From positions 768 to 64,767 of the forward strand of contig PXRX01000001.1 in assembly GCA_003023195.1 (NCBI GenBank): 64,000 nt of DNA. Reading direction: 5' to 3'. Shown here piece after piece: positions 9,494-61,850 of the stretch. The DNA comes from Halobacteriales archaeon QS_8_69_26. GTDB taxonomy: Archaea; Halobacteriota; Halobacteria; Halobacteriales; SW-7-71-33. Every line of letters starts with the position of its first letter. Position 1 is the first letter of the stretch. Made by a program: the position numbers and the translations under genes. The notes beneath the pieces were generated by a model. It did no database searches. It was not told where the DNA came from and worked only from the letters and a program-made list of their open reading frames with translations.

Positions 9494-9537
9494 ATCGCCG
9501 GCGGGTCGCCGTGGGACACGACCGCAGGGACCGGGGA

Positions 9538-14433: not shown

Positions 14434-14443
14434 TTACTTGCCG

Positions 14444-14475
14444 TCAATTATGTGTTTTTTCATCGCGTAATTTAT
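14444..14475. promoter_or_regulatory. AT-rich divergent promoter region (DUF4129 operon / htpX-like gene)
   Basis: gtcaattatgtgttttttcatcgcgtaatttatg is the only AT-rich stretch between the two divergent genes. It contains two TATA-like elements. Confidence 0.4.
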
Positions 14476-14577
14476 GACGCCCCCGTACCACGATCCGGGC
14501 GTGAACGGTGTGGGTCGGGGGTCCCAGCCGTCGTCCCCGCGGCACCGCCCGGCCCGCCACAGCGGAGGCCCGACGCA

Positions 14578-16209: not shown

Positions 16210-16244
16210 CTTCCTGCGGCTCGCGGATTGCTCGCCGCAGGAAG
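16210..16244 (-). other. Perfect 11-bp stem hairpin directly abutting the tRNA-Val 3' end
   Basis: CTTCCTGCGGC (16210-16220) pairs with GCCGCAGGAAG (16234-16244) around a 13-nt loop. It starts at the first nucleotide after the tRNA discriminator base. Function (trailer processing or termination) is unknown. Confidence 0.6.
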
Positions 16245-16319
16245 TGGGTCCGGGCGGATTCGAACCACCGATCTCGGCCTTGTAAAGGCCGCGTCATACC
16301 CAGGCTAGACCACGGACCC
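16245..16319 (-). tRNA. tRNA-Val (anticodon UAC)
   Basis: The reverse complement GGGUCCGUGGUCUAGCCUGGGUAUGACGCGGCCUUUACAAGGCCGAGAUCGGUGGUUCGAAUCCGCCCGGACCCA folds by hand into a cloverleaf. The acceptor stem is 7 bp (GGGUCCG/CGGACCC). The anticodon stem is CGGCC/GGCCG with loop UUUACAA. The T-arm is GGUGG-UUCGAAU-CCGCC. CCA is not encoded. Confidence 0.9.
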
Positions 16320-25101: not shown

Positions 25102-26890
25102 CGCCGACCACCGCCAGTGTCCCGAGGTTGTACGCGGCGTGGACGACCACGGCACAGACGAGTGCGACGGCGTAGGCCCGCGGTCCCCGGCGGGCACCGA
25201 ACGCGGATATCGTCGCGGTCGTCGCGTGCAACAGCAGGGGTGCCAGCAACAGTGCGGCGGCGGTCGGCCCGCCGACTGCGGCCTCCGGGACCACGGCCCC
25301 GCCGAGCGCGAGCGAAGGGAGGCCGACCACCTGGGCGACGATCATCCCCTTCTCGCCGAGGAAGAAGCCCACCCCCGAGAGAGAGCCGACGACGACCGCG
25401 ACCCGGTCGGTCCGGTCGAAGCGGGCGTGCTCGAAGCCCGCGTAGAGGTGGGCGCTCTTGGCCACCTCCTCGATGCCGGCGATGATCACGATGAGCACCG
25501 GCACCGATAGCTGGAGGGGGAGCGCGAACAGCAGTGCCACGGCGAGCAGTTCGGCGACGAACACGAACGGGATGGACAGCGCCGAGAGGAGCACGACGGA
25601 CCGCTTGCGGCGGATCCTGGCCGCCAGGGCGTCGAGCGCCTTCAGGCGAACCGACCGCTGGGTGAACATGTCTTCCTCGCGGTAGACGCCCGCTCCCAGC
25701 GCGAACAGCACCGTGGTCGCGAGGTAGAAGGGGCCGGTCGAGAAGGCGTACTCGCCCAGGGTGACCCCCGTGTTCTGGAGGTCCCGGACCACCAGGGTGA
25801 GCGGCGAGATGAGTGCGATGGGCGTTATTTCGGTGAAGATCGCCGGGACGAACGCGTAGGAGGTGAGGAACACCGAGATGGTCAGGGTCACGAAGGTGAG
25901 TTCCTTGAACGACCGGGCGAACATCGCCCCGACGAAGGTGGCCGCCAGGAACAGCGCGGCGATGGGAACGACCGCGGCCACCGACAGGGGACCGCCGCCG
26001 ATGAGGACCGCCGTTCCGACGCTGATGGCGAGCAGCGTCCCGAAGTACGGCAGGGTCTTGCCCGCGATGATGTCCCCACGACTCACCGGCGAGACCAGCA
26101 ACAGTTCCCCACGGCGGTTGATCCGCTCGTCCATTATCGTCGACCCGTAGGCCTGGATGACGAAGTTCATCGGGACGATGAACAGGAAGGCGAGCACGAG
26201 CGACCCGAACGGGAACGGGGGCTGGATCGACGAGGGGGTCCCCTCGCTTGCCTCGGCGTTCCCGCCGCCCAGGTTCGGGATCCCGAGCGGACCGCCGCCG
26301 CCCCCGCCGCCCCCGTCGCCGCCCCCGTTGCCGCCGCCACCACCGCCCCCATTGCCGCCGTCGCCGCCGCCACCGCCGCCGGTGCCCCCGCCGGGCACCT
26401 CCCGGACGGTCACCCGGGACCGGAACCGGACCGACACGTCGACGGGGAAGGCCGCGGCCGGGTCGCTGCCGCGCTCGGCCGCCGCCTGCATCGCCCGGTC
26501 GTTGTGGGCCTGGATCGACCGCCGGAACGCCGAGTAGGCCGCCCGTCCCTTCGGCGTGCTCCGGTGGACGACCAGGGTCCCCCGGACGAGTACGTCGACG
26601 CTCTCGGGCATCTCGCCGTCGGCCAGGGCGTCGTCCGGGACGTCGACCGCGACGAACTTCGGGTCGTCCTCGACGACGTTGTGGTACCGGCTTCGCTCGT
26701 CGACGCCGACCCGGTAGATACCCTCGTCGACGGTGACGCCGCCGCTCAGGACCGCGGGACCGACCAGCAACGCGAGCATCGCCCCGACCAGCGCCAGGAC
26801 GAGGGTTCGGCCCTTGACCTGCCCGGCCGTCTCGGTCAGTTCCCACCGGGCGATCCGGGCGACCTTCCGCGGGTCGATCCGGCCGATCAC
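25094..26890 (-). CDS. ABC-2 type permease fused to a C-terminal PrsW-like intramembrane protease domain, with a poly-Gly tract in the external loop
   Basis: 598 aa with a GTG start. The N-terminal part is ABC-2 permease-like (..MDERINRRGELLLVSPVSRGDIIAGK..). The last ~190 aa carry GIEEVAKS (EExxK), LLLHATT and VVHAAYN (HxxxN), as in PrsW/CPBP-type proteases. Confidence 0.75.
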   Translation of the reverse strand: MIGRIDPRKVARIARWELTETAGQVKGRTLVLALVGAMLALLVGPAVLSGGVTVDEGIYRVGVDERSRYHNVVEDDPKFVAVDVPDDALADGEMPESVDVLVRGTLVVHRSTPKGRAAYSAFRRSIQAHNDRAMQAAAERGSDPAAAFPVDVSVRFRSRVTVREVPGGGTGGGGGGDGGNGGGGGGGNGGGDGGGGGGGGPLGIPNLGGGNAEASEGTPSSIQPPFPFGSLVLAFLFIVPMNFVIQAYGSTIMDERINRRGELLLVSPVSRGDIIAGKTLPYFGTLLAISVGTAVLIGGGPLSVAAVVPIAALFLAATFVGAMFARSFKELTFVTLTISVFLTSYAFVPAIFTEITPIALISPLTLVVRDLQNTGVTLGEYAFSTGPFYLATTVLFALGAGVYREEDMFTQRSVRLKALDALAARIRRKRSVVLLSALSIPFVFVAELLAVALLFALPLQLSVPVLIVIIAGIEEVAKSAHLYAGFEHARFDRTDRVAVVVGSLSGVGFFLGEKGMIVAQVVGLPSLALGGAVVPEAAVGGPTAAALLLAPLLLHATTATISAFGARRGPRAYAVALVCAVVVHAAYNLGTLAVVGGV

Positions 26891-27023: not shown

Positions 27024-27911
27024 TCACGTCTCCGCCTCCCCGGTCGGGGTTTCGTCCGCGATGTCGAGGAATATTTCCTCCAGGCTCGGCTCCTCGGTTC
27101 GGATGTCGGTGACTTCGCCGCCCCGGTCGGCCGCCAGTCCCCTGGTCTCCTCGACTGCGCCCATGTCGTCGACGACGCGCTTGTAGCGGCCGTTCTCGCG
27201 GACCGCCTCGGGAACGTCGACGGTGGTGTAGACGTGGTACTCGGTCGTCCCGTGGCGGTCGCGGATCTCTTCGAGGGTGCCCCGGGCGATGATCCGCCCG
27301 CGGTTCATGACGATGACCCGGTCGCAGATGGACTCGACGTGGTAGAGGTTGTGGGCGCTGAACACGACGGTCTTGCTCCGGTCGCTGAGTTCGCGGGTGA
27401 AGTCGATGATGTAGTTCGTCGTCAGCGGGTCCAGCCCCGAGGCGGGTTCGTCGAACACCAGCACGTCGGGGTCGTTGACCAGCGACCGGGCGATGGCGAC
27501 CTTCCGCTTCATCCCCTTGGACATGTCCCCGATCTTCCGCGACCGGTGGTCCAGGTCCAACCGGTCCAGGGCGTCGTCGATGCGGTCGGTGGCGACCGAC
27601 CGCGGCACGTCGTAGAGGTCGGCGAAAAAGGTCAGGTAGGAGGTGGCGGTCATCTCCTCGTAGAGCGGTGACTCCTCGGGGAGGAACCCGAGGTTGCGCC
27701 TGGTCTCGGGGTCGTCCGTCGCCCGGCCACCCACCCGGGCGGTGCCGCTCGTCGGTTCGACCAGGCCGGCGAGCATCTTCAGCGTCGTCGTCTTGCCGGC
27801 CCCGTTCGGGCCGACCACCCCGAACACCTCCCCCGGTTCCACCGTGAAGGTGCTCCCCTCGACGGCCACGAAGTCGCCGTACTCCTTCCGAAGGTCCTCG
27901 ACTTCGATCAT
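27024..27911 (-). CDS. ABC transporter ATP-binding protein (ABC-2/NatA type)
   Basis: 295 aa. Walker A GPNGAGKTT, signature MSKGMKRKV and Walker B VLVFDEPASGLD are present. It is the first gene of a three-gene minus-strand operon. Confidence 0.9.
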   Translation of the reverse strand: MIEVEDLRKEYGDFVAVEGSTFTVEPGEVFGVVGPNGAGKTTTLKMLAGLVEPTSGTARVGGRATDDPETRRNLGFLPEESPLYEEMTATSYLTFFADLYDVPRSVATDRIDDALDRLDLDHRSRKIGDMSKGMKRKVAIARSLVNDPDVLVFDEPASGLDPLTTNYIIDFTRELSDRSKTVVFSAHNLYHVESICDRVIVMNRGRIIARGTLEEIRDRHGTTEYHVYTTVDVPEAVRENGRYKRVVDDMGAVEETRGLAADRGGEVTDIRTEEPSLEEIFLDIADETPTGEAET

Positions 27912-51804: not shown

Positions 51805-54800
51805 ATGAATATGACGACTGAAACACGCAAGAAGATCAAGTCACTGTTCCTGTCGTGGCTGATGGTCATGTCGGTAACTGCGGGCGTAGCGGCCTTCTCC
51901 GGTGGCGCCGGCGCGGCGCCGTCGGACGGCCTGTCCGCGGCGGACCCCGTCGCGTCCAGCGTGGACGACGGCGGCGTCACCGCGGCCTCGCTGTCCCCGC
52001 CATCGGGCGTCGGCTCTGACGATACGCCCTCGGACACCGTCGTCCCCGGCGAGCGGACGACGGTCGCCGACGTCACGTTCTCGACCTCAGGCAACGTGAG
52101 TAGCGTCTCCGTCAATCTCGCGGCCGGTACCGAAGCGGCGAACATCACGGCGGACGACGTCGACAACGTCAACGTCACGCTGTTCAGCGACACCTCCGGT
52201 GAGCTGGCGTCCAGCGGTGACGTGAGCTACGACGCCCTGGTGACGACGGTCGACTTCAGCAACGACAGCGCTGCCGTCGCCGGCAACGTTACCGGCGTCG
52301 ACAGGGTCGTGATCCGGGCCGAGACCAACGAGTTCAACGCCGAGAACGGCGACGTCATCGACGCCGCGTTCAATACCACGGACGCCGCCGGCGACGACGC
52401 TTCGTTCAGCACTGCCGAGAACCAGACCATCGAGACCGACACCGACGCTCGGCTCCGTGGCGAGGTCGTCTGGCAGAACGGTTCGCCCGCCGACAACGTC
52501 ACGATCCAGATCGTCGACACGGACACGGGCAACGTCCTGATCGACGACATCGTGACGAACGGCTTCGACACGAACCAGCCCGGCGTCTGGTCCCCCCAGA
52601 CCCGCTCGCCCGGCAACTACACGGTCGAGCTCGACGACACCGGGGGGACGGTGAGCGGCCTCCTCGGTTCGGTCCAGGTCTTCTCGACGCGCGTCGAACT
52701 CGAGCGTGGCGAGACGGAGAAGATAGAAACCGTCCTCGACCCGCTCGAACAGGTCGGCCCCCTCGAATGTGAGGGCGTCGTCGCCTTCGCGGGCGAGGAA
52801 GGGACCCTCACCATCACTGCAGAGAACGAGGAGAACAGCCTCCTCCAGGGCGCTTCGGTCCAGGCCGTCGGCAAGGACGGCTCCGAAGCGGTGACCCTGC
52901 TCAACAACGTCACCAAGACGACGGACGCGAACGGGCAGGTCACCTACAACGCGACCGCCAACATCACCGCCTCGGCGACGTTCACCTTCGAGGTCTCCAG
53001 CGGTGGCGACACCGGGACCGTCGAGTGTAGCGCGGTCTTCGTCCAGAACGGCGAGGGCCAGATCACCGGCGACGTGCGCGACGAGGCGACGACCGACCCC
53101 ATCGAGGACGCCCGCGTCTGGGCGGTCCTCGCGAGTAGCTACGTCCAGAACGAGCGCTACACCCGGATCAACCTCTCCGCGGTGTACGACAACCTCGGCG
53201 TGACCGGCGACAACCGGGACGACGTCGTCTGGATCCGCCTGGTCGACAGTGACACCGGCGAGATCGTCGACAACGACGACTACGACGTCCGCAACGAGGA
53301 GTTCAACCGGACCAACGACGGCAACACGAGCGTGACCGCGGGCGAGGGCGGATTCAACCCCGAGAACGACACCGGCGTCCGGCTCGTCGAGGACTTCAAC
53401 GTCACGAACGCCAGCGAGGGCGAGGGCTTCGCGGTCGTCGACCTCGACGGTGACGGCCTGGTGGCGTTCAACCACACCCGCATCGCGCCCGAGGACTACT
53501 ACGTGCAGATCTCGCTGGACGCGCCCAACGCCTCGCGCAACGACGGCGTCGACCGGCAGAAGCAACAGCTCCCCGAGGACGACGACCAGGTCACCCAGCC
53601 CTGGCCCGGCGACGAGTGGCGGAACGTCACGAGCGTCGACGCCAACGGCACGGTGACCTCCAGTACGGCTGCTGCCACCTCGAGTCCGGTCGGGAGTGGC
53701 AGCATCGTCGCGGAGTTCGAGCCGCCGGCGAACCTGACCATGGCCCAGACCGCGCGTCTGGCCGACCTGGCGGACTCGAACCTGGTGGACGCGCCCGGCT
53801 TCGAGAACAGCTGGGGCGAGAACACCGCCGGGACCGACGTGAACGGTGACTTCGAGCTGAGCAAGCTCTTCACCAACTTCCAGGACGGCCGCGCGTACGT
53901 GGTCATCGCCGAGAAGGCCGGCTACTCGACGGACTTCCACGACGCGTTCGTCCGCGAGGACGGTACCCTCCGGCTCGGCGACAGCGAGGAGGTCGAGTCG
54001 TTCAACCTCCTGCCCGAGCCGCCCGAGCCCGGCCAGGTGAACATCACCCAGGTCGGGACCCACCCGGACGCGGCGTTCAACGAGAGCCTCGTCACCCGGT
54101 TCGACGAGGTCAACGAGAACCCCGGTGACGACATCTTCCAGCGGATCCCCCGTGACGGGCGGACCATCGACGTCATCCAGGTGACGACCAAGACCGAGGA
54201 CGGCAGCCTGGAAGTCGGTGGGAACGTCACGGTGACCTTCGACGAGTACCCCGGCGAGGACCCGTTCTCGCCGACGGTCGTCGGCGTGGTCAACGGCACG
54301 TTCGAGAGCCAGACCGGGCCCAGCGGGAACAGCATCAAGATCAACACCGGCGACGGCGTCGAGAACGGCACGGCGCTGCTGCTGGTCCAGACGGACCTGG
54401 ACTCCGAGAGTTCGCGCGTCAACAAGACCGCCGAACTCGAGGCCGACCCCTCGCGGGACCACTCGAACGCCACGTTCGTCGGCGTCATCCAGTTCCGGGA
54501 GGCATCCATCTCCGGGAAGGTGACCGACACCGACGACGACCGCATCGAGGACGCGGCGGTGTGGGCCAACCAGTTCTCGTTCGGCCCGAACTTCGCAGTG
54601 CGCATCCGGCCCACTGCGGGTGACAACGCGGACGCGGTTGACGAGGACTCGGACACGTTCAACGTGACGATCTACCGCGACGTGGACGCCGACATCGACC
54701 TGGAGCCCCAGGAGAGCGCCATCGTGACGGCGGGAGGACTGCGCTCGTTCACGTTCTCGCAATTCGACTCGATCGACAACGTGAACAACACGCAGTTCCG

Positions 54801-55482
54801 GCTGTACGACCGGACCGAGGACACGCAGGGGTCGTACACGCTGGACCCGGTGCCGGCGGTGAACAACTCGTTCGTGGAGACGGACTACCGGATCCGCGGG
54901 ATCAAGCTCGACGAGCCCAACAAGGACGAAGTGTCCAACGACGGGCTGGCGTCGGTCTTCCCGCTGACGACCGACGACGCCAACGTCGTGATCCCGATCA
55001 ACATCACGCAGTCGAACTTCGAGGTGTCGAACCTGTCGGCCCCGTCCGCGGCGAGCCCCGGTGACAACATCACCGTGACCGCCGACGTCACCAACACTGG
55101 CGGGCTGGACAGCCAGGAGGTCGTCTTCCGGCTGGACGCCAACCAGAACGGTGACTTCACGGACTCGGCTGACGTCGAGCTGTCGGCCGGGACGGTGCAG
55201 CTGGACAACGGCGAGACCAAGCAGGTGTCCGTCGAGGTGACGGTGCCGGACGTGAACGGCACGTTCGAGCACGGCCTGTTCAGCGAGGACACCGCCGCGA
55301 CCGACACCATCGAGATCAGCAGTGACGGCGGAAACGGGACCGTCGTCGAGCAGTACGACGCGAACGACGACGGCGACATCAGCACCGACGAGCTGAACGC
55401 CGCCATCCAGGACTGGGGTGCCGGCGACCTGGAGACCGACGAGCTCAACCAGGTCATCCAGGCCTGGGCGGCCAGCAGCTAA
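51805..55482 (+). CDS. Giant secreted glycoprotein (1225 aa) with a CARDB-like module and a C-terminal dockerin/EF-hand-like motif, and no membrane anchor
   Basis: The signal peptide is MNMTTETRKKIKSLFLSWLMVMSVTAGVAAFSGGAGA. I counted about 40 N-x-S/T sequons by hand. A penultimate CARDB-like domain (PGDNITVTADVTNTGG...) is present. The last 42 aa are YDANDDGDISTDELNAAIQDWGAGDLETDELNQVIQAWAASS. There is no PGF-CTERM or terminal TM helix. Confidence 0.85.
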   Translation: MNMTTETRKKIKSLFLSWLMVMSVTAGVAAFSGGAGAAPSDGLSAADPVASSVDDGGVTAASLSPPSGVGSDDTPSDTVVPGERTTVADVTFSTSGNVSSVSVNLAAGTEAANITADDVDNVNVTLFSDTSGELASSGDVSYDALVTTVDFSNDSAAVAGNVTGVDRVVIRAETNEFNAENGDVIDAAFNTTDAAGDDASFSTAENQTIETDTDARLRGEVVWQNGSPADNVTIQIVDTDTGNVLIDDIVTNGFDTNQPGVWSPQTRSPGNYTVELDDTGGTVSGLLGSVQVFSTRVELERGETEKIETVLDPLEQVGPLECEGVVAFAGEEGTLTITAENEENSLLQGASVQAVGKDGSEAVTLLNNVTKTTDANGQVTYNATANITASATFTFEVSSGGDTGTVECSAVFVQNGEGQITGDVRDEATTDPIEDARVWAVLASSYVQNERYTRINLSAVYDNLGVTGDNRDDVVWIRLVDSDTGEIVDNDDYDVRNEEFNRTNDGNTSVTAGEGGFNPENDTGVRLVEDFNVTNASEGEGFAVVDLDGDGLVAFNHTRIAPEDYYVQISLDAPNASRNDGVDRQKQQLPEDDDQVTQPWPGDEWRNVTSVDANGTVTSSTAAATSSPVGSGSIVAEFEPPANLTMAQTARLADLADSNLVDAPGFENSWGENTAGTDVNGDFELSKLFTNFQDGRAYVVIAEKAGYSTDFHDAFVREDGTLRLGDSEEVESFNLLPEPPEPGQVNITQVGTHPDAAFNESLVTRFDEVNENPGDDIFQRIPRDGRTIDVIQVTTKTEDGSLEVGGNVTVTFDEYPGEDPFSPTVVGVVNGTFESQTGPSGNSIKINTGDGVENGTALLLVQTDLDSESSRVNKTAELEADPSRDHSNATFVGVIQFREASISGKVTDTDDDRIEDAAVWANQFSFGPNFAVRIRPTAGDNADAVDEDSDTFNVTIYRDVDADIDLEPQESAIVTAGGLRSFTFSQFDSIDNVNNTQFRLYDRTEDTQGSYTLDPVPAVNNSFVETDYRIRGIKLDEPNKDEVSNDGLASVFPLTTDDANVVIPINITQSNFEVSNLSAPSAASPGDNITVTADVTNTGGLDSQEVVFRLDANQNGDFTDSADVELSAGTVQLDNGETKQVSVEVTVPDVNGTFEHGLFSEDTAATDTIEISSDGGNGTVVEQYDANDDGDISTDELNAAIQDWGAGDLETDELNQVIQAWAASS

Positions 55483-55552: not shown

Positions 55553-55997
55553 GGCCAGCGGCCGCACCGGCCTCCGGTCGTGAGTCCGACCGACGGCGTC
55601 CGAGGACGGTCCGTGCGACGGCCGGTCGGAGTGGCCCCGGACCGGCCACGGGGTACCTCTCGGGTCGGAAGACGTGATTCCAAACCAGCACATCCCGGTT
55701 TATACGTCCCGGTCGGTCAGGATACGGAGTGAAAAGCGCCGGGGCTCGCGTCCGGCCGACCGCCCGGCCTCGGCGAGCGACCGAACACCCAGAACCGCAC
55801 GGTGTAACCGGGATTTCGGTCCGTCGGGTGGATCGTGCGACCGTCGTGCGCACGGTCGAACTCGGGGAAGGAAGACGACACATTACACAAAGCATTTACC
55901 ATATGGTTTCGAGGATGGGAATGATGGTACCTGTCCCGATGTTTACCGTACCTTTCGCGGTAGCATCGAGGCAGGTGCCTACACGCAAAACAAAGCT

Positions 55998-58900
55998 ATG
56001 ACAGGGATACAGACAGACAAGCTACGTAGCGTATTCCTCGCTGCGCTGATGGTGTTGTCGGTTGCTGCTGTCGCCTCGCCGGCGGCGGCCCAGCCGATCG
56101 ATTCTGCCGACCGGACGGTTGACCAGACGGAGGTCAACGCCGGCGGCAGTACGACGGTAACACTGACGGTCGAAGTCGGGGAAGACGCAGACTCAATCTC
56201 GATCCAGGATTCGTTCGATCCTGAGTTCGCCGAGGTATCGAATCTGAACGTGGAGTTCCAGAACGGTGACGGCAGCACGGTGTTCACTAACGCGGAAAAC
56301 GGTAGTGTGACCGTCGCTGCGTCGGCCGACGCGGGCACGACTATCGTCGTGACCTACGACGTCACCGTGGTCGACGAGGCGCCCGCCACCCACACGATTT
56401 CCGGTGAGGTCGTCTCCGGTGACCAGACGGTGACGCCGACCGGCGACACCGAGGTTAACGTCGTCGAGCAGGTCGGCCCGTCGATCACGTTCGACGGCCA
56501 GACCAGCGCCGGCAGTAGCGTCAACGTCGCCAGCTACAACCTCGGCGACAATGGCTCGACCGTCGCCGTCTGGTCGACCGACGACGCGGGTAACCCCGAC
56601 GAGGTCCTGGGCTCGGTTAGCCCCTCCTCGTCGAGCGGTAGCCTGAACGTCGCGCTGAACCAGCAGATCAGCGGCACCCAGACCCTGGTCGCGGCCGTCC
56701 ACAGCGGCGACACTTCGACTGAAATCCTCGCCAGTGACACCGCCGAGGTGACCGTCGAGACTCCGCCCGGTGACGCGGAAGTCGTCGACGGCGGGACCTT
56801 CTTCGTCGGTCAGGTCCTCTACACGAACGCGTACGACACGGGCGACCAGGTCGTCCTCCGTGACGGCGACGGTACCTTCCAGAGTGACGTGCCCGTCGAA
56901 GACGGGACCGTCACGCTGCGTACCGCCAACCGTAACGAGGGCATCTTCCAGCTGACCAGCCCGACCGGTCCGACCATCGAGTTCGAACTGGTCGAGCAGG
57001 ACTACGACATCTCGCCGAGTGAGGTGGAGGTCACGAACGAGGGCGACGGTGCTGCCGCCGAGATCACCGTCGCGTCCAACCGCGGCACGTACACCCACGT
57101 GCTCTCCTCGGAGAGCCTCAGTGCCTCGGACCTCCAGAGCGTGCTGGGCACCGGTACGATCGGCCCCGAGGGCGAGACGCTCCTCGTCTCCGGGACTGTC
57201 GACCAGACGCTCGCCGCAGACTTCACCGGCGTCCCCGCCGGCGACTACCAGATCGACTTCGGCGTCACCGACACGACGGCCAGCGACACCGTCAACGTCT
57301 CCGTCGAGGCGGCCGCTCCCGGCCAGGTGACGTTCGACTCCGACACGAAGGTCATCCAGGAGCAGCTGGGCGACCGGGCGCGGATCCCGCTCAGCTTCCA
57401 GAACTCCGACACTGCCCAGCTCGAGCTCGGCAGTGACGACCTGCGCTGGCGCGTCTCGCTGACGGTCACCGACGCGGACGACGACGGCTCCGCGACGGTG
57501 CTCGTCAACACGGACAACATCCGCCAGACCGGGACCGTGTTCGCCGCCGCTGGCGACGACACGGTCTCGAACGTCGAGGTCCTGACGGGCGGGCAGTTCA
57601 CGAGCCCCGACCGCAGGATCGCCGCGACCGCCTACCCGATGAGCGTGTCCGTCAACGGTGACGAGACCGACGTCGCCACGCTCTCGCTGCAGGACCCGTC
57701 CCAGGTCGAGCGCTCGCTCAGCGTCTCGCGCGCCCGGGCCGGGCTCTCGTTCGAGGACGCGCTCGCCAACCAGGAGGAATCCAGCACCGTCGCATCGAGC
57801 GACTGGGTGGTCATGGAACTCCAGGCCGCGGGCATCTTCGGTTACATCGGTGAGGACGCCGCTGCGGACCTCGCCGCGGGCGAGGACGGCGTCTCGCTGA
57901 GCATCAGCGAGACCTCGCTCGATCGCAACGAGGAAGGCGACAGCGTCGACCCGTCGGTCTTCGTGACCAGCGTCGACGAGGCGAGCAACACGATCACGCT
58001 GGCCGCCAAGGTCAACGAGGCTAACGGCTTCGAGATCGGCGAGACCTACCGCGCCACCTTCCAGGTCGCGGAGGCCAACCCCTACGTCGACGCGGCGGTG
58101 ACGCGCTCGGTCCAGTTCACGACCGCGCCGCGTGCCGTCTCGATCGACTTCGCGGGCGACCGGCTCCGCGTCCAGCAGGCGGCCAGCCAGACCATCTCCG
58201 GTAGCACCACGATGGCGACCGGCACGCAGGTGACGGTCACCATCCGGTCGACCGGTGAGAGCGTCGAGGGCGGTCAGCCCTTCCTCCGCTCGAAGACCAC
58301 GACGGTCCAGAACGGTGCCTGGAGCGTCGACTTCGACTTCGGAGACATCCCGCCCGGCCAGACCTTCACCGTGGCCGTGCGGTCCGCGGGTGCCAGTGAC
58401 GACGCTGCGGGCGTCGTCACCCAGGCCGCCTCCGTCTCGATGAGCAGCCAGATCTCCCAGAACGGTCAGGTCCTGCTCGTGGACAGCGTCTTCCTGCCCA
58501 ACGCCGGGTTCGTGACCATCCACGACGAGACCCTCCAAGACGGTGAGACTCTGGGCAGCGTCCTGGGCACCTCGCGGTACCTGCCGCCGGGCTCCCACGA
58601 GGACGTCCGCGTGACCCTCGACGAACCGATCGAGGAGACGCAGAACGTCATCGCCATGGCCCACCAGGACACCAACGGTAACGCCGTCTACGACTTCGTC
58701 GACCAGGAAGGCGGCGCAGACGGGCCGTACACCCTGGGTGGCGAGGCCGTGACGGACGACGCCCAGGTCCAGATCCCGACGGAGGAGACGCCGACGGCCA
58801 CGCCGACGGCCACGCCGACCGACACCCCGACCGACACGCCGACGGCCACGCCGACGGCCACGCCGACCGAGACCCCGACCGAGACCCCGACCGAGACCCC

Positions 58901-59006
58901 GACCGACGGGGACGGCGACGGTGACGGTGCGCCCGGCTTCGGCCTCGGCATCGCAGTCCTCGCGCTGCTGGCTGCTGCGCTGCTGGCAGCCCGCCGCCGC
59001 GAGTAA
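55998..59006 (+). CDS. PGF-CTERM-anchored surface (S-layer-like) glycoprotein, 1002 aa
   Basis: Start re-picked at ATG 55998 (MTGIQTDKLRSVFLAALMVLSVAAVASPAAAQP). The C-terminus has a Thr/Pro-rich linker (PTATPTATPTDTPTDTPTATPTATPTETPTETPTETPT) followed by DGDGDGDGAPGFGLGIAVLALLAAALLAARRRE. This is the PGF motif, a hydrophobic helix and a basic tail. I found only about 3 N-glycosylation sequons. Confidence 0.88.
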   Translation: MTGIQTDKLRSVFLAALMVLSVAAVASPAAAQPIDSADRTVDQTEVNAGGSTTVTLTVEVGEDADSISIQDSFDPEFAEVSNLNVEFQNGDGSTVFTNAENGSVTVAASADAGTTIVVTYDVTVVDEAPATHTISGEVVSGDQTVTPTGDTEVNVVEQVGPSITFDGQTSAGSSVNVASYNLGDNGSTVAVWSTDDAGNPDEVLGSVSPSSSSGSLNVALNQQISGTQTLVAAVHSGDTSTEILASDTAEVTVETPPGDAEVVDGGTFFVGQVLYTNAYDTGDQVVLRDGDGTFQSDVPVEDGTVTLRTANRNEGIFQLTSPTGPTIEFELVEQDYDISPSEVEVTNEGDGAAAEITVASNRGTYTHVLSSESLSASDLQSVLGTGTIGPEGETLLVSGTVDQTLAADFTGVPAGDYQIDFGVTDTTASDTVNVSVEAAAPGQVTFDSDTKVIQEQLGDRARIPLSFQNSDTAQLELGSDDLRWRVSLTVTDADDDGSATVLVNTDNIRQTGTVFAAAGDDTVSNVEVLTGGQFTSPDRRIAATAYPMSVSVNGDETDVATLSLQDPSQVERSLSVSRARAGLSFEDALANQEESSTVASSDWVVMELQAAGIFGYIGEDAAADLAAGEDGVSLSISETSLDRNEEGDSVDPSVFVTSVDEASNTITLAAKVNEANGFEIGETYRATFQVAEANPYVDAAVTRSVQFTTAPRAVSIDFAGDRLRVQQAASQTISGSTTMATGTQVTVTIRSTGESVEGGQPFLRSKTTTVQNGAWSVDFDFGDIPPGQTFTVAVRSAGASDDAAGVVTQAASVSMSSQISQNGQVLLVDSVFLPNAGFVTIHDETLQDGETLGSVLGTSRYLPPGSHEDVRVTLDEPIEETQNVIAMAHQDTNGNAVYDFVDQEGGADGPYTLGGEAVTDDAQVQIPTEETPTATPTATPTDTPTDTPTATPTATPTETPTETPTETPTDGDGDGDGAPGFGLGIAVLALLAAALLAARRRE

Positions 59007-59022
59007 CGACGGCTAGCTAACC

Positions 59023-59060
59023 ACCGGACTTCGTCCGGTTTCGACCTGCGGTTTCTTTTA
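59023..59060 (+). terminator. Hairpin plus T-runs after the PGF-CTERM gene
   Basis: ACCGGAC-ttc-GTCCGGT (59023-59039) is followed by ttcgacctgcggtttctttta. Confidence 0.4.
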
Positions 59061-59134
59061 TCGGACTGTGCGCCAGCGGCGGCACCGCGTCGCTCCCGGA
59101 GGGTTTATTCCCCGTCCCGATAGATCCCTGGGGC

Positions 59135-60733
59135 GTGTCCGACCGACGCAGTTTCCCGTGGGCGGCGCTATCCCGCCGGTTCGGGGTCGACCCACGCGCC
59201 CTGGCGACCCTGCGGGTCGCGGTCGGAACGTTGATCCTCGCCGATCTCGCGCTCCGTTCGCAGAGCCTCGTTGCGTTCTACACCGACGCCGGGGTGTTGC
59301 CCAGGGCGGCCCTGCGCGACTCGTACCCGGGGATCGCGCGGCTCTCCCTGCACGCCCTCTCGGGATCCCTCGCGTTCGAGGCGGCACTGTTCGCGGTCGC
59401 CGGGGTCGCCGCGGTGGCGCTGGCCGCCGGCTACCGGACCCGGCTCGCGACGGTCCTCTCGCTGGTGCTGCTGGCGTCGCTCCACGCCCGCAATCCACTG
59501 GTCCTGAACGCGGGCGACGCCGTGCTCCGGCGGTTGCTCCTGTGGGGTGCGTTCCTCCCGCTGGGCGAGGTGTGGTCGGTGGACGCGCTCCGGGGACGGA
59601 CGTCCAACGGTCGCGTGCGGGCGGACGGCTCCGGGGACCCGGACGGTGACGCCGATCCGGACGGACGGTGGACGGAGCGGCGCGTGGCGACCCTGGCCTC
59701 GGCGGGACTGCTCTGTCAGGTGGTCGTCGTCTACCTCGCCAACGCGGTCTTCAAGCTCGGGTCGGACGCCTGGACCGAGGGCGTCGCGCTCCGGTACGTG
59801 TTCGGGCTGGACCGGATCACCGTCGGTCCGGGCGACGCCCTGGCCGGGCACCCCGAGTTGCTGGCCGTGCTGGGGGTCGCATGGCTCGCGTTGCTCGTTT
59901 CCTCGGTCGGTCTGGTGGCCCTGACCGGGCGGGCCCGGACGGCCCTCGTGTGCCTCTTCGCCGGCGCCCACCTGGCGATGGCGCTGACCATGGCCCTCGG
60001 CCTGTTCCCGCTCGTCTCGGTCGCCGCCCTGCTCCCCTTTCTGCCGCCGGCGGTCTGGGACCGGGCAGAGCGGGTGGGCCGACGGCTCCGGTCCCGGGCG
60101 AACGGGGAACTCCCCGGCGCGCCCCGCCTCGGTCGGCTGGTCGACCGCCTGGCGACGGGTGACGGACCGCGGGTGCGACAGGCGCGCGCCCCGGACCCGA
60201 CGCCCGGACCGACCGATCGATACGGGCCAGCCCTCGACCGGTGGCGGGGACGGATCGCCAGGGCAGTCGTCGCCGTCCTCCTGGTCTCGATGCTCCTCTG
60301 GAACGGGGCGACGCTCGGGTACGTCGACGCCCCGGACGCGGTCGAGGCGACCGTCGACCCGGAGGAGCGGCGATGGGACATGTTCGCCGAACCCTGGCGG
60401 TACGGCGGGTGGTACGTCGCGTCCGCCGAGACGGCGTCCGGACGGGAGGTGGACGCCATGTACGGTGGGAGCGTCGACTGGGACCGCCCGCCGGAGGTGG
60501 CCGAGGCGTACCCCACACACCGGTGGCGGATGTACCTGGTCGACCTCCTGCGGTCCGGAAACGCCGACCTGCGTCCCCACCTCGCCGCCTACCTCTGCCG
60601 GGACTGGAACGGGAGTCACGAGGAGGGACTACGGTCGGTCTCGCTGTACTTCGTCGAACTGCACACCCGGTTCGACGGACCCGACGAGGCCCGGCGCCGA
60701 CACCTCCTCGACCACCGGTGTTCGGGGCGATAG
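59135..60733 (+). CDS. HTTM domain (vitamin K-dependent gamma-carboxylase-like) integral membrane protein
   Basis: 532 aa with a GTG start. The N-terminal ~300 aa match the HTTM pattern as I remember it: DPRALATLRVAVGTLILADLALR, FYTDAGVLP, RNPLVLNAGDAVLRRLLLWGAFLPLGEVWSVDAL, plus further TM helices. The C-terminal ~200 aa are soluble. Confidence 0.78.
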   Translation: MSDRRSFPWAALSRRFGVDPRALATLRVAVGTLILADLALRSQSLVAFYTDAGVLPRAALRDSYPGIARLSLHALSGSLAFEAALFAVAGVAAVALAAGYRTRLATVLSLVLLASLHARNPLVLNAGDAVLRRLLLWGAFLPLGEVWSVDALRGRTSNGRVRADGSGDPDGDADPDGRWTERRVATLASAGLLCQVVVVYLANAVFKLGSDAWTEGVALRYVFGLDRITVGPGDALAGHPELLAVLGVAWLALLVSSVGLVALTGRARTALVCLFAGAHLAMALTMALGLFPLVSVAALLPFLPPAVWDRAERVGRRLRSRANGELPGAPRLGRLVDRLATGDGPRVRQARAPDPTPGPTDRYGPALDRWRGRIARAVVAVLLVSMLLWNGATLGYVDAPDAVEATVDPEERRWDMFAEPWRYGGWYVASAETASGREVDAMYGGSVDWDRPPEVAEAYPTHRWRMYLVDLLRSGNADLRPHLAAYLCRDWNGSHEEGLRSVSLYFVELHTRFDGPDEARRRHLLDHRCSGR

Positions 60734-60827
60734 CGGCGTGGATCGACCGCGTTCGCAGTCACGCGACGACGGGATCGACTGGCGTTCGGGGCGGTAGCGG
60801 CGGGGCTCGCCGCGTGAAACAAAGTAT

Positions 60828-61850
60828 ATGGTCCGGCCGGACCTACGGTCGGTCGTGCCCGACCCACTGACGACCGGGATCGAACTCCTGGCCGCCCTCG
60901 GGGAGGCGTCGGACCCCCTCGCCTGGGTGGTCGTCGCCGTCTTCCTGGCCGCCGCGGTCCTGGAGGCCGACGACCGGCCCTGGGCCCGCCACGTGGCCGT
61001 CGGTGCCTGGGTGCTGTTCGGGGTCTTCTGGCTGACGCTGATCCACCACTTCGCGTTCGTCCAGAAGAGCCTCGTCGAGGGAGTCCTGACGGTCGTGGCG
61101 GTGCCGGCCTGCCTGTCGGCGGGCGCCCTGCTCTGGCGGGGCCGGGACTCGCTGTTCGTGCTCACCCGGTCGGTCGCCGTGATGGGCCTCATCGTGTTGC
61201 CCTTCGAGGCCGTCCCGTTCCTCAGACGGACCCTCATCGAGACGGTGACCGCCCAGACGGAACTGCTGATCAACCTGCTAGGCTACCACCCCGAGGTCGT
61301 CGCCGGGACGACCATCGAGGGCTGGGGGATCCCCGCCAAGGAGTACCCCTACCACAGCACGTTCCTGTTCTACAGCGAGAGCGGGGACCCGCTCACGCTG
61401 ACGATCAAGCTGGCGTGTACCGGGCTCGGCTCCATCGCCATCTTCGCGGGACTGATCGCCGCCGTCGACGCGCCACTCTCCCGGAAGCTCCGGGCGTTCG
61501 CCGTGTCGGTGCCGGTCATCTACGGGTTGAACCTCGTGCGCAACGTCTTCATCGCGGTCGGCTTCGGCACCCAGCAACTCCACGTCTTCCCCGACCTGGT
61601 GATGACGCTGTTCGCCGTCGAGAGCAGGGTGATGGTCTCGTACTACGTCGCGGACCGGATGATCGCACAGACCCTGTCCGTGTTCGTGCTGGTGGGGATC
61701 ACGTGGCTGGTCGTCCGACAGCTCCCGGAGGTCCTCACCGTCGTCGAGGACGCCCTCTACGTGCTCACCCGCACCGAGTACGACCTGGAGGGGGCGATGG
61801 GTGCGCCCGAGGTACGCGCCGACGGCGGCCCCGACCGCGGGGACGATTGA
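60828..61850 (+). CDS. artA: Archaeosortase A (PGF-CTERM-specific exosortase-family transpeptidase)
   Basis: 340 aa and polytopic. The conserved Cys motif is TIKLACTGLGSIAIFAGLIAAV and the Arg motif is YGLNLVRNVFIAV. A downstream conserved region (..SYYVADRMIAQT..) is present, and the overall layout is that of exosortase/archaeosortase proteins. Confidence 0.8.
   Translation: MVRPDLRSVVPDPLTTGIELLAALGEASDPLAWVVVAVFLAAAVLEADDRPWARHVAVGAWVLFGVFWLTLIHHFAFVQKSLVEGVLTVVAVPACLSAGALLWRGRDSLFVLTRSVAVMGLIVLPFEAVPFLRRTLIETVTAQTELLINLLGYHPEVVAGTTIEGWGIPAKEYPYHSTFLFYSESGDPLTLTIKLACTGLGSIAIFAGLIAAVDAPLSRKLRAFAVSVPVIYGLNLVRNVFIAVGFGTQQLHVFPDLVMTLFAVESRVMVSYYVADRMIAQTLSVFVLVGITWLVVRQLPEVLTVVEDALYVLTRTEYDLEGAMGAPEVRADGGPDRGDD

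What the first reader, a model, noticed from the sequence alone, without database searches (positions are those of the whole stretch)
59135..60733. HTTM / vitamin-K-dependent-carboxylase-like protein immediately upstream of artA
The N-terminal ~300 aa show the HTTM signature blocks: D..sLa.lR...G, FYtd.GvLP and NaGD.vLr.LLlW..FLPlG..wSvDa. About 200 C-terminal residues form a soluble domain of unknown function. In animals this fold uses a quinone cofactor to modify secreted proteins. Here it sits 94 nt upstream of the enzyme that lipid-anchors secreted proteins and 128 nt downstream of such a substrate. A role in envelope-protein or lipid modification is plausible but purely inferential.
Basis: partly seen in the sequence, partly recalled or inferred. 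Interest (0 to 1): 0.7.

Follow-up and report, generated by a model that had tools for sequence, protein, structure and literature searches.

The report
Archaeal GGCX-like membrane enzyme beside artA
This gene encodes a haloarchaeal membrane protein related to the animal vitamin-K-dependent carboxylase that keeps the quinone-activating residues but not the glutamate-binding ones, and its position next to the archaeosortase gene is confined to one archaeal family rather than being evidence of a shared pathway.

Summary
The ORF (59135-60733, +, 532 aa) is real and belongs to the HTTM family. Pfam HTTM scores 32.1 bits against a cut-off of 27.7. A confident AlphaFold model (pLDDT 89) matches only human GGCX in the PDB (E 4e-8). 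Profile alignments place the family-conserved K207, W213, F291 and W414-D-M416 on GGCX Lys218, Trp223, Phe299 and Trp399-Asp-Met401. GGCX's glutamate-binding Asn159, His160 and Tyr395, its Asp263 and its propeptide clamps are not conserved. After the HTTM domain come a basic linker, one more TM helix and a 135-aa extracytoplasmic α/β domain with a conserved cysteine pair and no Pfam model.

The artA link is weak. artA lies within 10 kb in only 7 of 80 genomic loci, and every named genus among them belongs to Natronomonadaceae. None of the evaluable loci with close ArtA relatives has the gene. Homologs also sit on ten megaplasmids and in a Bradymonadaceae bacterium. A DCC1-like thiol-disulfide oxidoreductase is about as frequent a partner: neighbour in 9 of 80 loci, fused in 4 of 97 representatives.

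Best reading: a menaquinol- and O2-dependent GGCX-like enzyme with an unknown substrate, inserted into a conserved PGF-glycoprotein–artA neighbourhood. It is a new member of a known kind and of moderate interest.

The parts
59135..60733 (+). Gene for the 532-aa HTTM/GGCX-like polytopic membrane protein (GTG start, TAG stop at 60731-60733)
   Evidence: ORF. Pfam HTTM above its cut-off. Full-length homologs. AF2 model with pLDDT 89.2. GGCX is the only PDB fold match.
59135..60109 (+). Residues 1-325: helical transmembrane catalytic domain, equivalent to the GGCX TM domain plus its 'cap' of three short helices (211-214, 218-224, 232-236)
   Evidence: Secondary structure. hhalign to GGCX 59-314 with E 3e-4. 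GGCX domain description from PMC12647623.
59753..59773 (+). K207...W213: aligned to the GGCX catalytic base Lys218 and to Trp223, which stacks on it
   Evidence: hhalign. K in 101/109 and W in 89/109 family representatives. Codons verified.
59516..59518 (+). D128 of the invariant N-x-G-D motif. It occupies the position of GGCX His160, a glutamate-binding residue, so that residue is not conserved.
   Evidence: hhalign. D in 96/96 representatives.
60005..60007 (+). F291: aligned to GGCX Phe299, the residue that stacks on CO2
   Evidence: hhalign. F in 124/128. Role of Phe299 from PMC12647623.
60110..60223 (+). Residues 326-363: low-confidence linker. With the preceding amphipathic helix (305-325) it carries 13 Lys/Arg and is predicted cytoplasmic.
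   Evidence: pLDDT 48-77. Charge count.
60224..60313 (+). Residues 364-393: additional long TM helix, in the position of GGCX TM9, that carries the C-terminal domain across the membrane
   Evidence: Helix 364-393. Extended hhalign alignment.
60374..60385 (+). W414-D415-M416-F417: loop motif aligned to GGCX Trp399-Asp400-Met401-Met402 (luminal loop LL9, which covers the naphthoquinone ring)
   Evidence: hhalign (E 1e-3, low probability). W in 141/142, M in 137/146 and F in 143/146. Role of Met401.
60314..60730 (+). Residues 394-532: compact extracytoplasmic α/β domain (a four-stranded sheet and helices) with the conserved pair C488/C529. No Pfam model covers it, and it is not detectably like the GGCX clamps.
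   Evidence: Models. No Pfam hit. Foldseek against the PDB has best E 0.17 with GGCX absent. 2,174 cluster representatives. The cysteines are lost together.
59104..59109 (+). TATA-like TTTATT about 28 nt upstream of the GTG start. This spacing fits a gene-specific promoter and a leaderless transcript.
   Evidence: Read from the sequence. The promoter function is inferred from general knowledge of haloarchaeal promoters and was not tested.
59024..59059 (+). Hairpin (CCGGA...TCCGG) followed by T-runs just after the stop of the PGF-CTERM gene. This looks like a terminator separating that gene from the HTTM gene.
   Evidence: Read from the sequence. The terminator function is inferred.
55995..59006 (+). 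Upstream neighbour (context only): S-layer-glycoprotein-like surface protein with a haloarchaeal signal peptide, DUF7827, DUF7282, a Thr/Pro-rich linker and a PGF-CTERM anchor signal. It is a predicted ArtA substrate.
   Evidence: The start at ATG 55995 is inferred from the position of the signal-peptide match. The mechanical ORF starts at 55674.
60855..61850 (+). Downstream neighbour (context only): archaeosortase A. The likely start is GTG 60855, and the longest ORF starts at ATG 60828. A TATA-like AAAGTATAT lies at 60821-60829.
   Evidence: TIGR04125 at 327 bits. The public gene call is 331 aa. Sequence.

Best explanation
The gene encodes a stand-alone polytopic membrane enzyme of the HTTM superfamily, built like the catalytic core of the vitamin-K-dependent carboxylase GGCX.

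Architecture: a TM bundle, a three-helix cap just after a conserved lysine, one late TM helix, and a loop that closes over the quinone pocket. GGCX's propeptide-binding clamps are replaced by a small extracytoplasmic α/β domain that probably has a disulfide.

Proposed mechanism (inferred, not shown): Lys207 deprotonates reduced menaquinone, the haloarchaeal membrane quinone. O2 then adds to give the peroxide or alkoxide 'strong base' and menaquinone epoxide. That base abstracts a proton from a substrate bound at the outer face of the membrane, near the invariant Asp128, Arg119 and Arg27. Carboxylation may follow, because the CO2-stacking Phe is retained.

The substrate is not recognised the way GGCX recognises Glu and propeptide, and it remains unknown.

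The position between a PGF-CTERM glycoprotein gene and artA is synteny specific to Natronomonadaceae. The gene appears to have been inserted into a conserved PGF-glycoprotein–artA–trm5 neighbourhood. It probably has its own promoter, and the position is not evidence of a shared pathway.
For: Shown here:
- Pfam HTTM scores above its cut-off.
- The model is confident, with pLDDT 89.2 and pTM 0.89.
- GGCX is the only significant PDB match: 16 entries, E down to 4e-8, probability 1.0, about 530 aligned columns. Everything else has E > 1.
- hhalign maps K207 to K218, W213 to W223, G216 to G226, H279 to H287, F291 to F299 and W414-D-M416 to W399-D-M401.
- These residues are conserved in representatives only 27-57% identical to the query: K 101/109, F 124/128, W 141/142, M 137/146.
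- Their roles in GGCX are taken from PMC12647623.
- Charge distribution and a co-lost cysteine pair fit a topology with the N-terminus inside and the C-terminal domain outside.

Against a link to artA:
- Only 7 of 80 loci carry artA within 10 kb, all named ones in one family.
- No neighbour family is shared by more than 13 of 81 loci.
- 0 of 73 unlinked loci have a PGF-CTERM gene within 3 kb.
- None of the evaluable close-ArtA loci has the gene, and PGF-CTERM lies directly upstream of artA in L087 and L088.
- Copies lie on megaplasmids and one in a bacterium.
- A terminator-like hairpin and TATA-like boxes precede each gene.
Against: - No biochemical evidence exists for any archaeal HTTM protein. 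Quinone dependence is inferred from conserved residues alone.
- GGCX Asp263, reported to assist Lys218 (PMC13486548), aligns to a gap.
- The profile alignments are statistically weak (E 3e-4 and 1e-3, probabilities 39% and 21%). The W-D-M equivalence comes from the lower-confidence extension.
- I could not inspect model coordinates to confirm that K207, F291 and M416 are close in space.
- Within Natronomonadaceae the HTTM, artA and PGF-CTERM genes stay clustered despite rearrangements: the order differs in L010 and L021, and artA is duplicated in four loci. That leaves some room for a lineage-specific functional link.
- The neighbour-joining tree cannot resolve whether the linkage arose once.
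Confidence: 0.55

Rival explanations
1. One reading: the enzyme is an accessory of the ArtA pathway. It would modify the PGF-CTERM S-layer-type glycoprotein, or the lipid that ArtA attaches, before or after archaeosortase processing.
For: - In the window, L002 and L019 the gene lies between a PGF-CTERM glycoprotein gene and artA.
- In 8 of 81 loci it is adjacent to artA.
- The three genes stay clustered even where the order is rearranged, as in L010.
- The predicted active side faces outward, as does ArtA's substrate.
Against: - Adjacency is confined to Natronomonadaceae and absent from 73 of 81 loci.
- There is no enrichment of PGF-CTERM genes near the other HTTM genes.
- The closest ArtA relatives in metagenomes lack the gene, and two have PGF-CTERM directly upstream of artA.
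- The family occurs on megaplasmids and in a bacterium.
- Each gene has its own TATA-like box, and a terminator-like element follows the PGF gene.
- No paper in the held library links archaeosortase with this family.
Confidence: 0.12
2. A quinone-linked thiol/disulfide redox or folding role. The protein would work with a DCC1-like thiol-disulfide oxidoreductase to pass electrons between the quinone pool and cysteines of exported or membrane proteins. This would resemble the roles proposed for VKOR/DsbB, or for the related ER protein LMF1, rather than C-H activation.
For: - A DCC1-like gene (PF04134, 110.7 bits) lies divergently upstream in 9 of 80 loci from several genera.
- A DCC1-like domain is fused in 4 of 97 divergent representatives, best E 2.9e-9.
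- Bacterial HTTM-DCC1 fusions are described in bioRxiv 10.64898/2026.08.19.745780.
- 6 of 97 representatives weakly match LMF1.
- Several plasmid copies have redox-related neighbours.
Against: - The window has no DCC1-like gene.
- The DCC-linked genes form a separate clade from the window's gene.
- The HTTM domain has no conserved CxxC. The only conserved cysteines, C488 and C529, are 41 residues apart in the outer domain and look structural.
- Conservation of the Lys, Trp, Phe and W-D-M set argues for GGCX-type chemistry. In that case the DCC1 partner could serve to recycle the quinone epoxide instead.
Confidence: 0.15
3. A genuine protein carboxylase that makes gamma-carboxyglutamate, or carboxy-aspartate as MloH does, on acidic haloarchaeal surface proteins.
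For: - The equivalents of Lys218, Trp223, Phe299 (the CO2 pocket) and Met401 are conserved.
- The bacterial relative MloH carboxylates an aspartyl residue.
Against: - GGCX's Glu-binding Asn159, His160 and Tyr395 are not conserved. An invariant Asp sits at the His160 position, which would not favour binding a carboxylate.
- There is no match to the VKGC luminal domain PF22777.
- The C-terminal domain alone does not match GGCX structurally.
Confidence: 0.06
4. An SdpB-like role in maturation or export of a secreted peptide or toxin, or a non-catalytic membrane scaffold.
For: The best NCBIfam match is the SdpB family TIGR04033, with E 4.5e-8.
Against: - That score is 33.1 bits against a curated cut-off of 178.4, and it covers only residues 180-305.
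- No SdpA- or SdpC-like neighbour, or any other conserved small neighbour, is found.
- Strong conservation of GGCX catalytic positions argues against a passive role.
Confidence: 0.08

Closest known systems
[quoted passage not shown]
   Same: - GGCX is the only significant structural match.
- The order of elements is the same: TM bundle, catalytic Lys at the end of a TM helix, a three-helix cap, a late TM helix, then a loop carrying W-D-M.
- The equivalents of Lys218, Trp223, Gly226, His287, Phe299 and Trp399-Asp-Met401 are conserved.
- The catalytic side faces away from the cytoplasm.
   Different: - Identity is only 15-17%, and phmmer and hmmsearch do not detect the relationship.
- Asn159, His160, Tyr395 and Asp263 are not conserved.
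- The clamps A and B, the CTD and the PF22777 luminal domain are missing. A 135-aa α/β domain replaces them.
- The protein is 532 aa, against 758 aa for GGCX.
Bacterial HTTM proteins (some fused to DCC1) that pair with DUF5819 proteins, and MloH, in which the two parts are fused (bioRxiv 10.64898/2026.08.19.745780; Law et al. 2018 as cited there)
   Same: - HTTM core followed by a unit of one TM helix plus a soluble domain, which in those models sits where the GGCX luminal part sits.
- The association with DCC1-like oxidoreductases also occurs here, as a neighbour in 9 of 80 loci and as a fusion in 4 of 97 representatives.
- Stand-alone ~190-aa 'TM + domain' relatives exist.
   Different: - The C-terminal domain does not reach the DUF5819 Pfam model. 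The best result is E 0.038, in 4 of 97 members.
- The window's genome region has no DCC1 gene.
Giant-virus gamma-carboxylase-like 'vitamin K epoxidases' (PMC13486548)
   Same: Both keep the Lys218 equivalent while lacking elements needed for Glu carboxylation. Those authors proposed that the viral enzymes keep epoxidase chemistry for a different, lipid-related purpose.
   Different: - The viral proteins are truncated and lack GGCX 374-418. This protein keeps a W-D-M loop.
- The viral proteins have Glu at the Asp263 position. Here that position aligns to a gap.
- The viral genes are next to VKOR and a sterol desaturase. No such genes are in this window.
SdpB (Bacillus sporulation-delaying-protein system; TIGR04033)
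   Same: It shares the HTTM domain and gives the best NCBIfam match.
   Different: The score is far below the family cut-off (33 against 178 bits). There is no SdpA or SdpC partner, and this protein has an additional TM helix and C-terminal domain.
Lipase maturation factor 1 (LMF1, PF06762)
   Same: It is a related polytopic ER membrane protein, and 6 of 97 family representatives weakly match its Pfam model.
   Different: The window protein itself does not match LMF1. From general knowledge, LMF1 is regarded as a folding factor rather than an enzyme.

Membership tests
HTTM domain family (Pfam PF05090) | Score at or above the Pfam gathering cut-off | tested here: met
   32.1 bits against 27.7, E 1.1e-7, over residues 181-305 matching profile positions 136-257 of 259. 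The N-terminal half alone scores only 13.9 bits. 61 of 97 divergent relatives also match.
HTTM domain family (Pfam PF05090) | Fold of the polytopic helical domain shared with the GGCX TM domain | tested here: met
   Foldseek matches 16 GGCX entries with E from 4e-8 to 4e-2 and probability 0.99-1.0. All other hits have E > 1.
Vitamin-K-dependent carboxylase (GGCX) family | Catalytic base Lys218 and the Trp223 that stacks on it | tested here: met
   K207 and W213 align to them in two hhalign runs. K is present in 101/109 and W in 89/109 representatives.
Vitamin-K-dependent carboxylase (GGCX) family | CO2-pocket Phe299 | tested here: met
   F291 aligns to it and is present in 124/128 representatives.
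Vitamin-K-dependent carboxylase (GGCX) family | Loop LL9 with Met401 covering the naphthoquinone ring | tested here: inconclusive
   W414-D-M416-F aligns to W399-D-M401-M only in the extended, low-probability alignment (E 1e-3, probability 21%). hhalign of the C-terminal part against the single GGCX sequence did not recover it. The motif is very conserved and lies just after the last TM helix, as in GGCX.
Vitamin-K-dependent carboxylase (GGCX) family | Glutamate-binding Asn159, His160 and Tyr395 | tested here: not met
   The aligned positions are G127 and D128 (invariant), and there is no Tyr at the Tyr395 position.
Vitamin-K-dependent carboxylase (GGCX) family | Asp263 next to the catalytic Lys | tested here: not met
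   It aligns to a gap in both alignments, and the corresponding helix has no conserved acidic residue. The alignment in this helix is uncertain.
Vitamin-K-dependent carboxylase (GGCX) family | Luminal propeptide-binding domain (PF22777; clamps A and B) | tested here: not met
   No PF22777 hit even at E 10, although vertebrate GGCX proteins carry it. The model of the C-terminal part alone gives no GGCX hit, best E 0.17.
Vitamin-K-dependent carboxylase (GGCX) family | Quinol- and O2-dependent epoxidase and carboxylase activity | not testable with these tools
   This needs biochemistry.
SdpB family (NCBIfam TIGR04033) | Score at or above the curated cut-off | tested here: not met
   33.1 bits against 178.4.
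DUF5819 (Pfam PF19136), for the C-terminal TM helix and domain | Match to the Pfam model | tested here: not met
   The window protein has no hit at E 10. The best result among 97 relatives is E 0.038, 15 bits against a cut-off of 27.1. A structural comparison could not be run.
ArtA / PGF-CTERM sorting system (as an accessory component) | Conserved gene neighbourhood or co-distribution with artA and PGF-CTERM genes across lineages | tested here: not met
   - 7 of 80 genomic loci carry artA within 10 kb, all named ones in Natronomonadaceae.
- 0 of 73 other loci have a PGF-CTERM gene within 3 kb.
- 0 of 5 loci with close ArtA relatives have the HTTM gene.
- Homologs occur on megaplasmids and in a bacterium.

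The most novel reading that the evidence does not exclude
Haloarchaea carry out a vitamin-K-type reaction: menaquinol plus O2 gives the epoxide and a strong base, on the outer face of the membrane. That would mean a menaquinone epoxide cycle in Archaea, possibly recycled through DCC1-like or VKOR proteins. In Natronomonadaceae the enzyme would modify the neighbouring PGF-CTERM S-layer-type glycoprotein, or its lipid anchor, in concert with ArtA. This would be a previously unknown post-translational or lipid modification of the archaeal envelope.
Probability: 0.1. Interest if true: 0.8.

Novelty: new member of a known kind. Interest (0 to 1): 0.35.

Why it matters
GGCX chemistry is known from animals and from one bacterial natural-product enzyme. 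The evolutionary survey in a recent GGCX structure paper covered only Eukaryota and Bacteria. [quoted passage not shown]

This work finds a large, mostly haloarchaeal family: at least 539 full-length homologs and 2,174 cluster representatives for the C-terminal domain. The family keeps the quinol-activating residues but changes the substrate site. That suggests the same strong-base chemistry may be used for something else in aerobic, menaquinone-containing archaea.

It also gives testable residues (K207, D128, F291, M416) and a candidate partner (DCC1-like proteins).

For the scan itself, the main lesson is negative: the adjacency to artA does not generalise and should not be used to assign function.

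Tried and rejected
- phmmer and hmmsearch of the protein and of the family profile against PDB sequences found nothing. The link to GGCX is visible only by fold and by profile-profile comparison.
- hhalign of the C-terminal sub-alignment against the single GGCX sequence gave a spurious alignment with E 0.69. My by-eye pairing of C488 with GGCX Cys450 was not reproduced by the profile-profile run, so I dropped it.
- Foldseek with a model of the C-terminal part alone found nothing significant, with MHC/MR1 platforms best at E 0.17. I therefore do not claim that the soluble domain is homologous to the GGCX clamps.
- My first neighbour-joining trees were flawed. Wrong-frame ORFs were picked for about 20 loci, which created an artificial clade. 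This was corrected. Even the corrected tree is a simple distance tree without support values.
- A search for a conserved operon partner found none beyond genus-level synteny: kinases, isocitrate dehydrogenase, a CDC48-type ATPase and a helicase.
- tblastn found no DCC1-like gene in the window, and Pfam scans of 43 window ORFs found no VKOR, DsbA or menaquinone genes.
- The sigma-70 promoter scanner was not used because it does not cover archaeal promoters. The TATA and terminator calls were read by eye.
- The literature search found no paper linking archaeosortase to HTTM or gamma-carboxylase.
Full report
**1. The observation**

The ORF exists as described: 59135-60733 on the + strand, GTG start, 532 aa. 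Its codon-position GC (GC3 0.90) matches that of its neighbours. The public source contig, an ENA metagenome assembly of 65,958 bp, carries the same 532-aa gene call.

Pfam HTTM (PF05090) scores 32.1 bits against a gathering cut-off of 27.7, with E 1.1e-7. The significant stretch covers only residues 181-305, and the N-terminal 160 residues alone score 13.9 bits.

They fall on invariant or nearly invariant columns in alignments of 20 and 105 homologs.

The neighbours are as stated. The downstream gene is archaeosortase A (TIGR04125, 327 bits). The upstream gene is a surface glycoprotein with a haloarchaeal signal peptide and a PGF-CTERM signal (TIGR04126, 32.2 bits against a cut-off of 24.5). 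The gaps of 128 nt and 94 nt are correct for the longest ORFs. artA more probably starts at GTG 60855, as in the public gene call and as homolog alignments suggest, which makes the gap 121 nt.

**2. What the protein is**

At least 539 homologs were found. The 120 listed are mostly full length, 46-74% identical, and from Halobacteria. NCBI already names them 'HTTM domain-containing protein' or, occasionally, 'Vitamin K-dependent gamma-carboxylase'.

An AlphaFold2 model built with 105 sequences is confident (pLDDT 89.2, pTM 0.89). Its elements, in order, are:
- a helical membrane domain (about residues 8-302);
- an amphipathic helix and a low-confidence linker (305-363) carrying 13 Lys/Arg;
- a long TM helix (364-393);
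- a compact α/β domain (401-528).

Foldseek against the PDB returns only human GGCX. There are 16 entries with E from 4e-8 to 4e-2, probability 0.99-1.0, about 530 aligned columns, TM-score 0.42-0.47 for the 15 significant entries (0.32 for the weakest, 9bum_A) and 12-17% identity. The next hit has E above 1. Sequence searches against PDB chains find nothing.

**3. Mapping the active site**

I entered human GGCX from memory and verified it against the PDB chain: 757 of 758 residues were identical, and I corrected the one difference.

hhalign of the family profile against GGCX gave E 3e-4 over residues 18-306 against GGCX 59-314. Against a profile of 108 vertebrate GGCX sequences, with a permissive alignment threshold, it gave E 1e-3 over residues 7-482 against GGCX 50-480.

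Both alignments place these residues together:

| This protein | GGCX | Role in GGCX |
|---|---|---|
| D19, R27 | D60, R68 | – |
| W147-S-V-D150 | the GGCX W-S-V-D motif | – |
| Q195, Y200 | Q206, Y211 | – |
| W213 | Trp223 | stacks on Lys218 |
| G216 | Gly226 | – |
| H279 | His287 | – |
| F291 | Phe299 | stacks on CO2 |

The extended alignment also places W414-D415-M416-F417 on Trp399-Asp400-Met401-Met402. That is the luminal loop LL9, whose Met401 covers the naphthoquinone ring. The residue roles come from PMC12647623.

In 147 representatives that are 27-57% identical to the query, these positions are strongly conserved:
- K207 in 101/109
- F291 in 124/128
- W414 in 141/142
- M416 in 137/146
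- F417 in 143/146

The model also shows three short helices (211-214, 218-224, 232-236) immediately after K207. GGCX has a three-helix 'cap' after Lys218.

**4. What is not conserved**

- GGCX's glutamate-binding Asn159 and His160 align to G127 and D128. D128 is invariant, present in 96 of 96 representatives.
- Tyr395 has no tyrosine counterpart.
- Asp263 aligns to a gap.
- The VKGC luminal domain (PF22777) is present in all vertebrate GGCX hits but is not detected here, even at E 10.
- A separate confident model of residues 360-532 (pLDDT 87.7) has no significant PDB match. The best is E 0.17, and GGCX is not in the top 50.

So the shared part is the catalytic core: TM domain, cap, late TM helix and probably LL9. 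The GGCX clamps that bind propeptides are replaced by a different small domain.

That domain has two cysteines, C488 and C529, that are conserved and lost together: 133 sequences have both, 6 have neither and 4 are discordant. This fits an extracytoplasmic disulfide. The domain is net acidic, while the linker before the last TM helix is strongly basic. This fits a topology with the N-terminus inside and the C-terminal domain outside, the same sidedness as GGCX.

**5. The C-terminal domain as a family**

Searched alone against 1.84 billion cluster representatives, the last 173 residues find 2,174 proteins at E ≤ 1e-3 and 660 at E ≤ 1e-10.
- Most are 480-540 aa with the match at the C-terminus, which is the same architecture.
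- Some are about 190 aa and consist of a basic N-terminus, one TM helix and the domain. Some of these have non-halophilic composition.
- No Pfam model covers the domain.

Among 97 divergent representatives:
- 61 match HTTM;
- 4 carry a fused DCC1-like domain (best E 2.9e-9);
- 6 weakly match LMF1;
- 4 match DUF5819 below threshold (best E 0.038).

**6. The link to artA**

I fetched 80 genomic loci encoding relatives, out of 227 found.
- tblastn with the window's ArtA finds artA within 10 kb in only 7 of them: L002, L010, L019, L020, L021, L023 and L032.
- Every named genus among these (Haloglomus, Halorarius, Natronomonas) belongs to the family Natronomonadaceae.
- L002 has the same gene order as the window, and L019 has PGF-CTERM, HTTM, artA, artA.
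- Four loci have two tandem artA paralogs.
- In L010 and L021 artA is convergent with the HTTM gene.

Clustering all ORFs within 5 kb of the gene in 81 loci shows no neighbour family present in more than 13 loci. The recurrent ones are genus-level synteny.

The one neighbour that crosses genera is a divergently transcribed DCC1-like thiol-disulfide oxidoreductase in 9 loci (PF04134, 110.7 bits). These loci form their own clade in a distance tree. In that tree the artA-linked genes lie in several small groups with unlinked genes between them.

PGF-CTERM-like ORFs occur within 3 kb of the HTTM gene only in artA-linked loci. None occurs within 3 kb in the other 73 loci.

The reverse test starts from the window's ArtA. 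Five metagenomic loci encode its closest relatives (55-63% identity), and none has an HTTM gene. One of them has too little upstream sequence to judge. In L087 and L088 a PGF-CTERM glycoprotein gene lies directly upstream of artA, and Trm5 follows downstream in L086, L088 and L089.

The conserved neighbourhood is therefore PGF-glycoprotein – artA – (dph5) – trm5. The HTTM gene looks like an insertion into it in some Natronomonadaceae.

The family also sits on ten haloarchaeal megaplasmids, in varied and partly redox-related contexts without artA. One member with the same C-terminal domain comes from a Bradymonadaceae bacterium.

In the window, a hairpin and T-runs follow the PGF gene. A TATA-like TTTATT lies about 28 nt before the HTTM start, and another AT-rich box lies about 30 nt before the likely artA start. 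This suggests separate promoters. I read these elements by eye, so read-through transcription cannot be excluded.

**7. Most likely mechanism**

- **Shown:** HTTM membership, the GGCX-like fold, conservation of the residues that activate the quinol in GGCX, outward-facing topology by charge, and the lack of a general artA link.
- **Inferred:** the enzyme binds reduced menaquinone, the membrane quinone of aerobic haloarchaea (general knowledge). Lys207 deprotonates it, and O2 addition creates the strong base and the epoxide. That base deprotonates a substrate held near the invariant D128, R119 and R27 at the outer face, possibly followed by carboxylation, since Phe291 is kept.
- **Unknown:** the substrate. 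The different substrate site and the missing clamps argue against classical Gla formation.
- **Open:** DCC1-like partners in other lineages could recycle the quinone epoxide or indicate a thiol-redox role.

**8. Comparison with what is known, and novelty**

The protein is a member of the HTTM family, and the membership test was met. It has the catalytic core of GGCX but fails three defining features of GGCX proper: the Glu-binding residues, Asp263 and the luminal propeptide-binding domain. It should therefore be called GGCX-like, not a gamma-glutamyl carboxylase.

It is not an SdpB-family member (33 bits against a cut-off of 178).

The nearest analogies are the bacterial HTTM/DUF5819/DCC1 systems with MloH, and the giant-virus 'vitamin K epoxidases' that keep Lys218 but not the carboxylase elements.

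The family is already annotated in public databases, so this is a new member of a known kind. Three things appear not to have been described in the held literature:
- conservation of the GGCX quinol-activating residues in an archaeal family;
- the unnamed C-terminal domain family;
- the association with DCC1-like proteins in haloarchaea.

The GGCX evolutionary survey I read covered only Eukaryota and Bacteria.

**9. Verdict**

Interest is moderate at 0.35. The most novel reading not excluded is an archaeal vitamin-K-type modification of envelope components, tied to ArtA substrates in Natronomonadaceae. I give it a probability of about 0.1.

Noticed in passing
L019:11564-13586, L020:3049-5125, L023:11601-13623, L032:12727-14792: Four Natronomonadaceae-type loci carry two tandem archaeosortase A paralogs immediately downstream of the HTTM gene. 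The paralogs are 52-58% identical to the window's ArtA. The window and L002 have one copy.
   Followed up: partly
L017, L022, L027, L029, L034, L036, L045, L060, L074 (about 150-650 nt upstream of the HTTM gene, opposite strand): A DCC1-like thiol-disulfide oxidoreductase gene (PF04134, 110.7 bits) is divergently adjacent to the HTTM gene in 9 of 80 loci from several genera. A DCC1-like domain is fused to the protein in 4 of 97 divergent family representatives. The window has no such gene.
   Followed up: partly
window 60821-60857: artA probably starts at GTG 60855 (331 aa, as in the public gene call) rather than ATG 60828. The AT-rich AAAGTATAT that overlaps the ATG would then be its TATA box, about 30 nt upstream.
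   Followed up: partly
L086-L090 (metagenomic loci found with the window's ArtA): In the closest ArtA relatives the PGF-CTERM glycoprotein gene lies directly upstream of artA (L087, L088), and Trm5 follows downstream (L086, L088, L089), with no HTTM gene. This looks like the ancestral arrangement.
   Followed up: yes
P0247, P0278, P0328, P0308 (proteins): These ~180-200-aa proteins consist only of a basic N-terminus, one TM helix and the C-terminal domain with its W-x-M-F-(A/S)-P motif. Some are lysine-rich and non-halophilic in composition. They may be split-gene versions analogous to DUF5819 proteins, or they may be gene fragments. None matches any Pfam model.
   Followed up: partly
window 51805-55482 (+): A 1,225-aa secreted surface protein with a haloarchaeal signal peptide, a CARDB-like domain and a C-terminal EF-hand-like segment. 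It has no PGF-CTERM signal and lies just upstream of the PGF-CTERM glycoprotein gene. A homolog occupies the same position in L002.
   Followed up: partly
window 58870-58950 (within the PGF-CTERM gene): A long Thr/Pro/Asp/Glu repeat (PTATPTATPTDTPTDTPTATPTATPTETPTETPTETPTDGDGDGDG) immediately precedes the PGF motif. It resembles the O-glycosylated linkers of S-layer glycoproteins. The gene matches the ArtA-dependent S-layer glycoprotein model NF041335 at only 125.8 bits against a cut-off of 1100.
   Followed up: no
window 56109 (public gene call) against 55995: The public gene call for the PGF-CTERM gene begins at a GAC codon, after the signal peptide. The ATG at 55995 precedes the signal-peptide match. 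This discrepancy is unexplained.
   Followed up: no
plasmid records NZ_CP089594.1, NZ_CP100401.1, NZ_CP120471.1 and 7 others: Ten haloarchaeal megaplasmids carry full-length homologs, and Halobacterium zhouii has two on one plasmid. Neighbours include a plastocyanin/azurin-family protein, a molybdopterin oxidoreductase, cbb3 oxidase subunit I, thioredoxin, GST and an NADH:flavin oxidoreductase.
   Followed up: partly
P0345 (NCBI MFB6262700.1): A Bradymonadaceae bacterium MAG encodes a 622-aa HTTM protein with the same C-terminal domain (39% identity over that domain), so the architecture is not restricted to Archaea.
   Followed up: no
window 9511-11550 (+), 17184-18161 (+), 25094-26890 (-), 14434-14856 (-): These are sizeable ORFs with gene-like GC3 but no Pfam match at E ≤ 1e-4. 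25094-26890 lies next to an ABC ATPase gene (27024-27911) and may be its permease.
   Followed up: no
window 16244-16319 (-): The single tRNA gene in the window, tRNA-Val (anticodon TAC).
   Followed up: no
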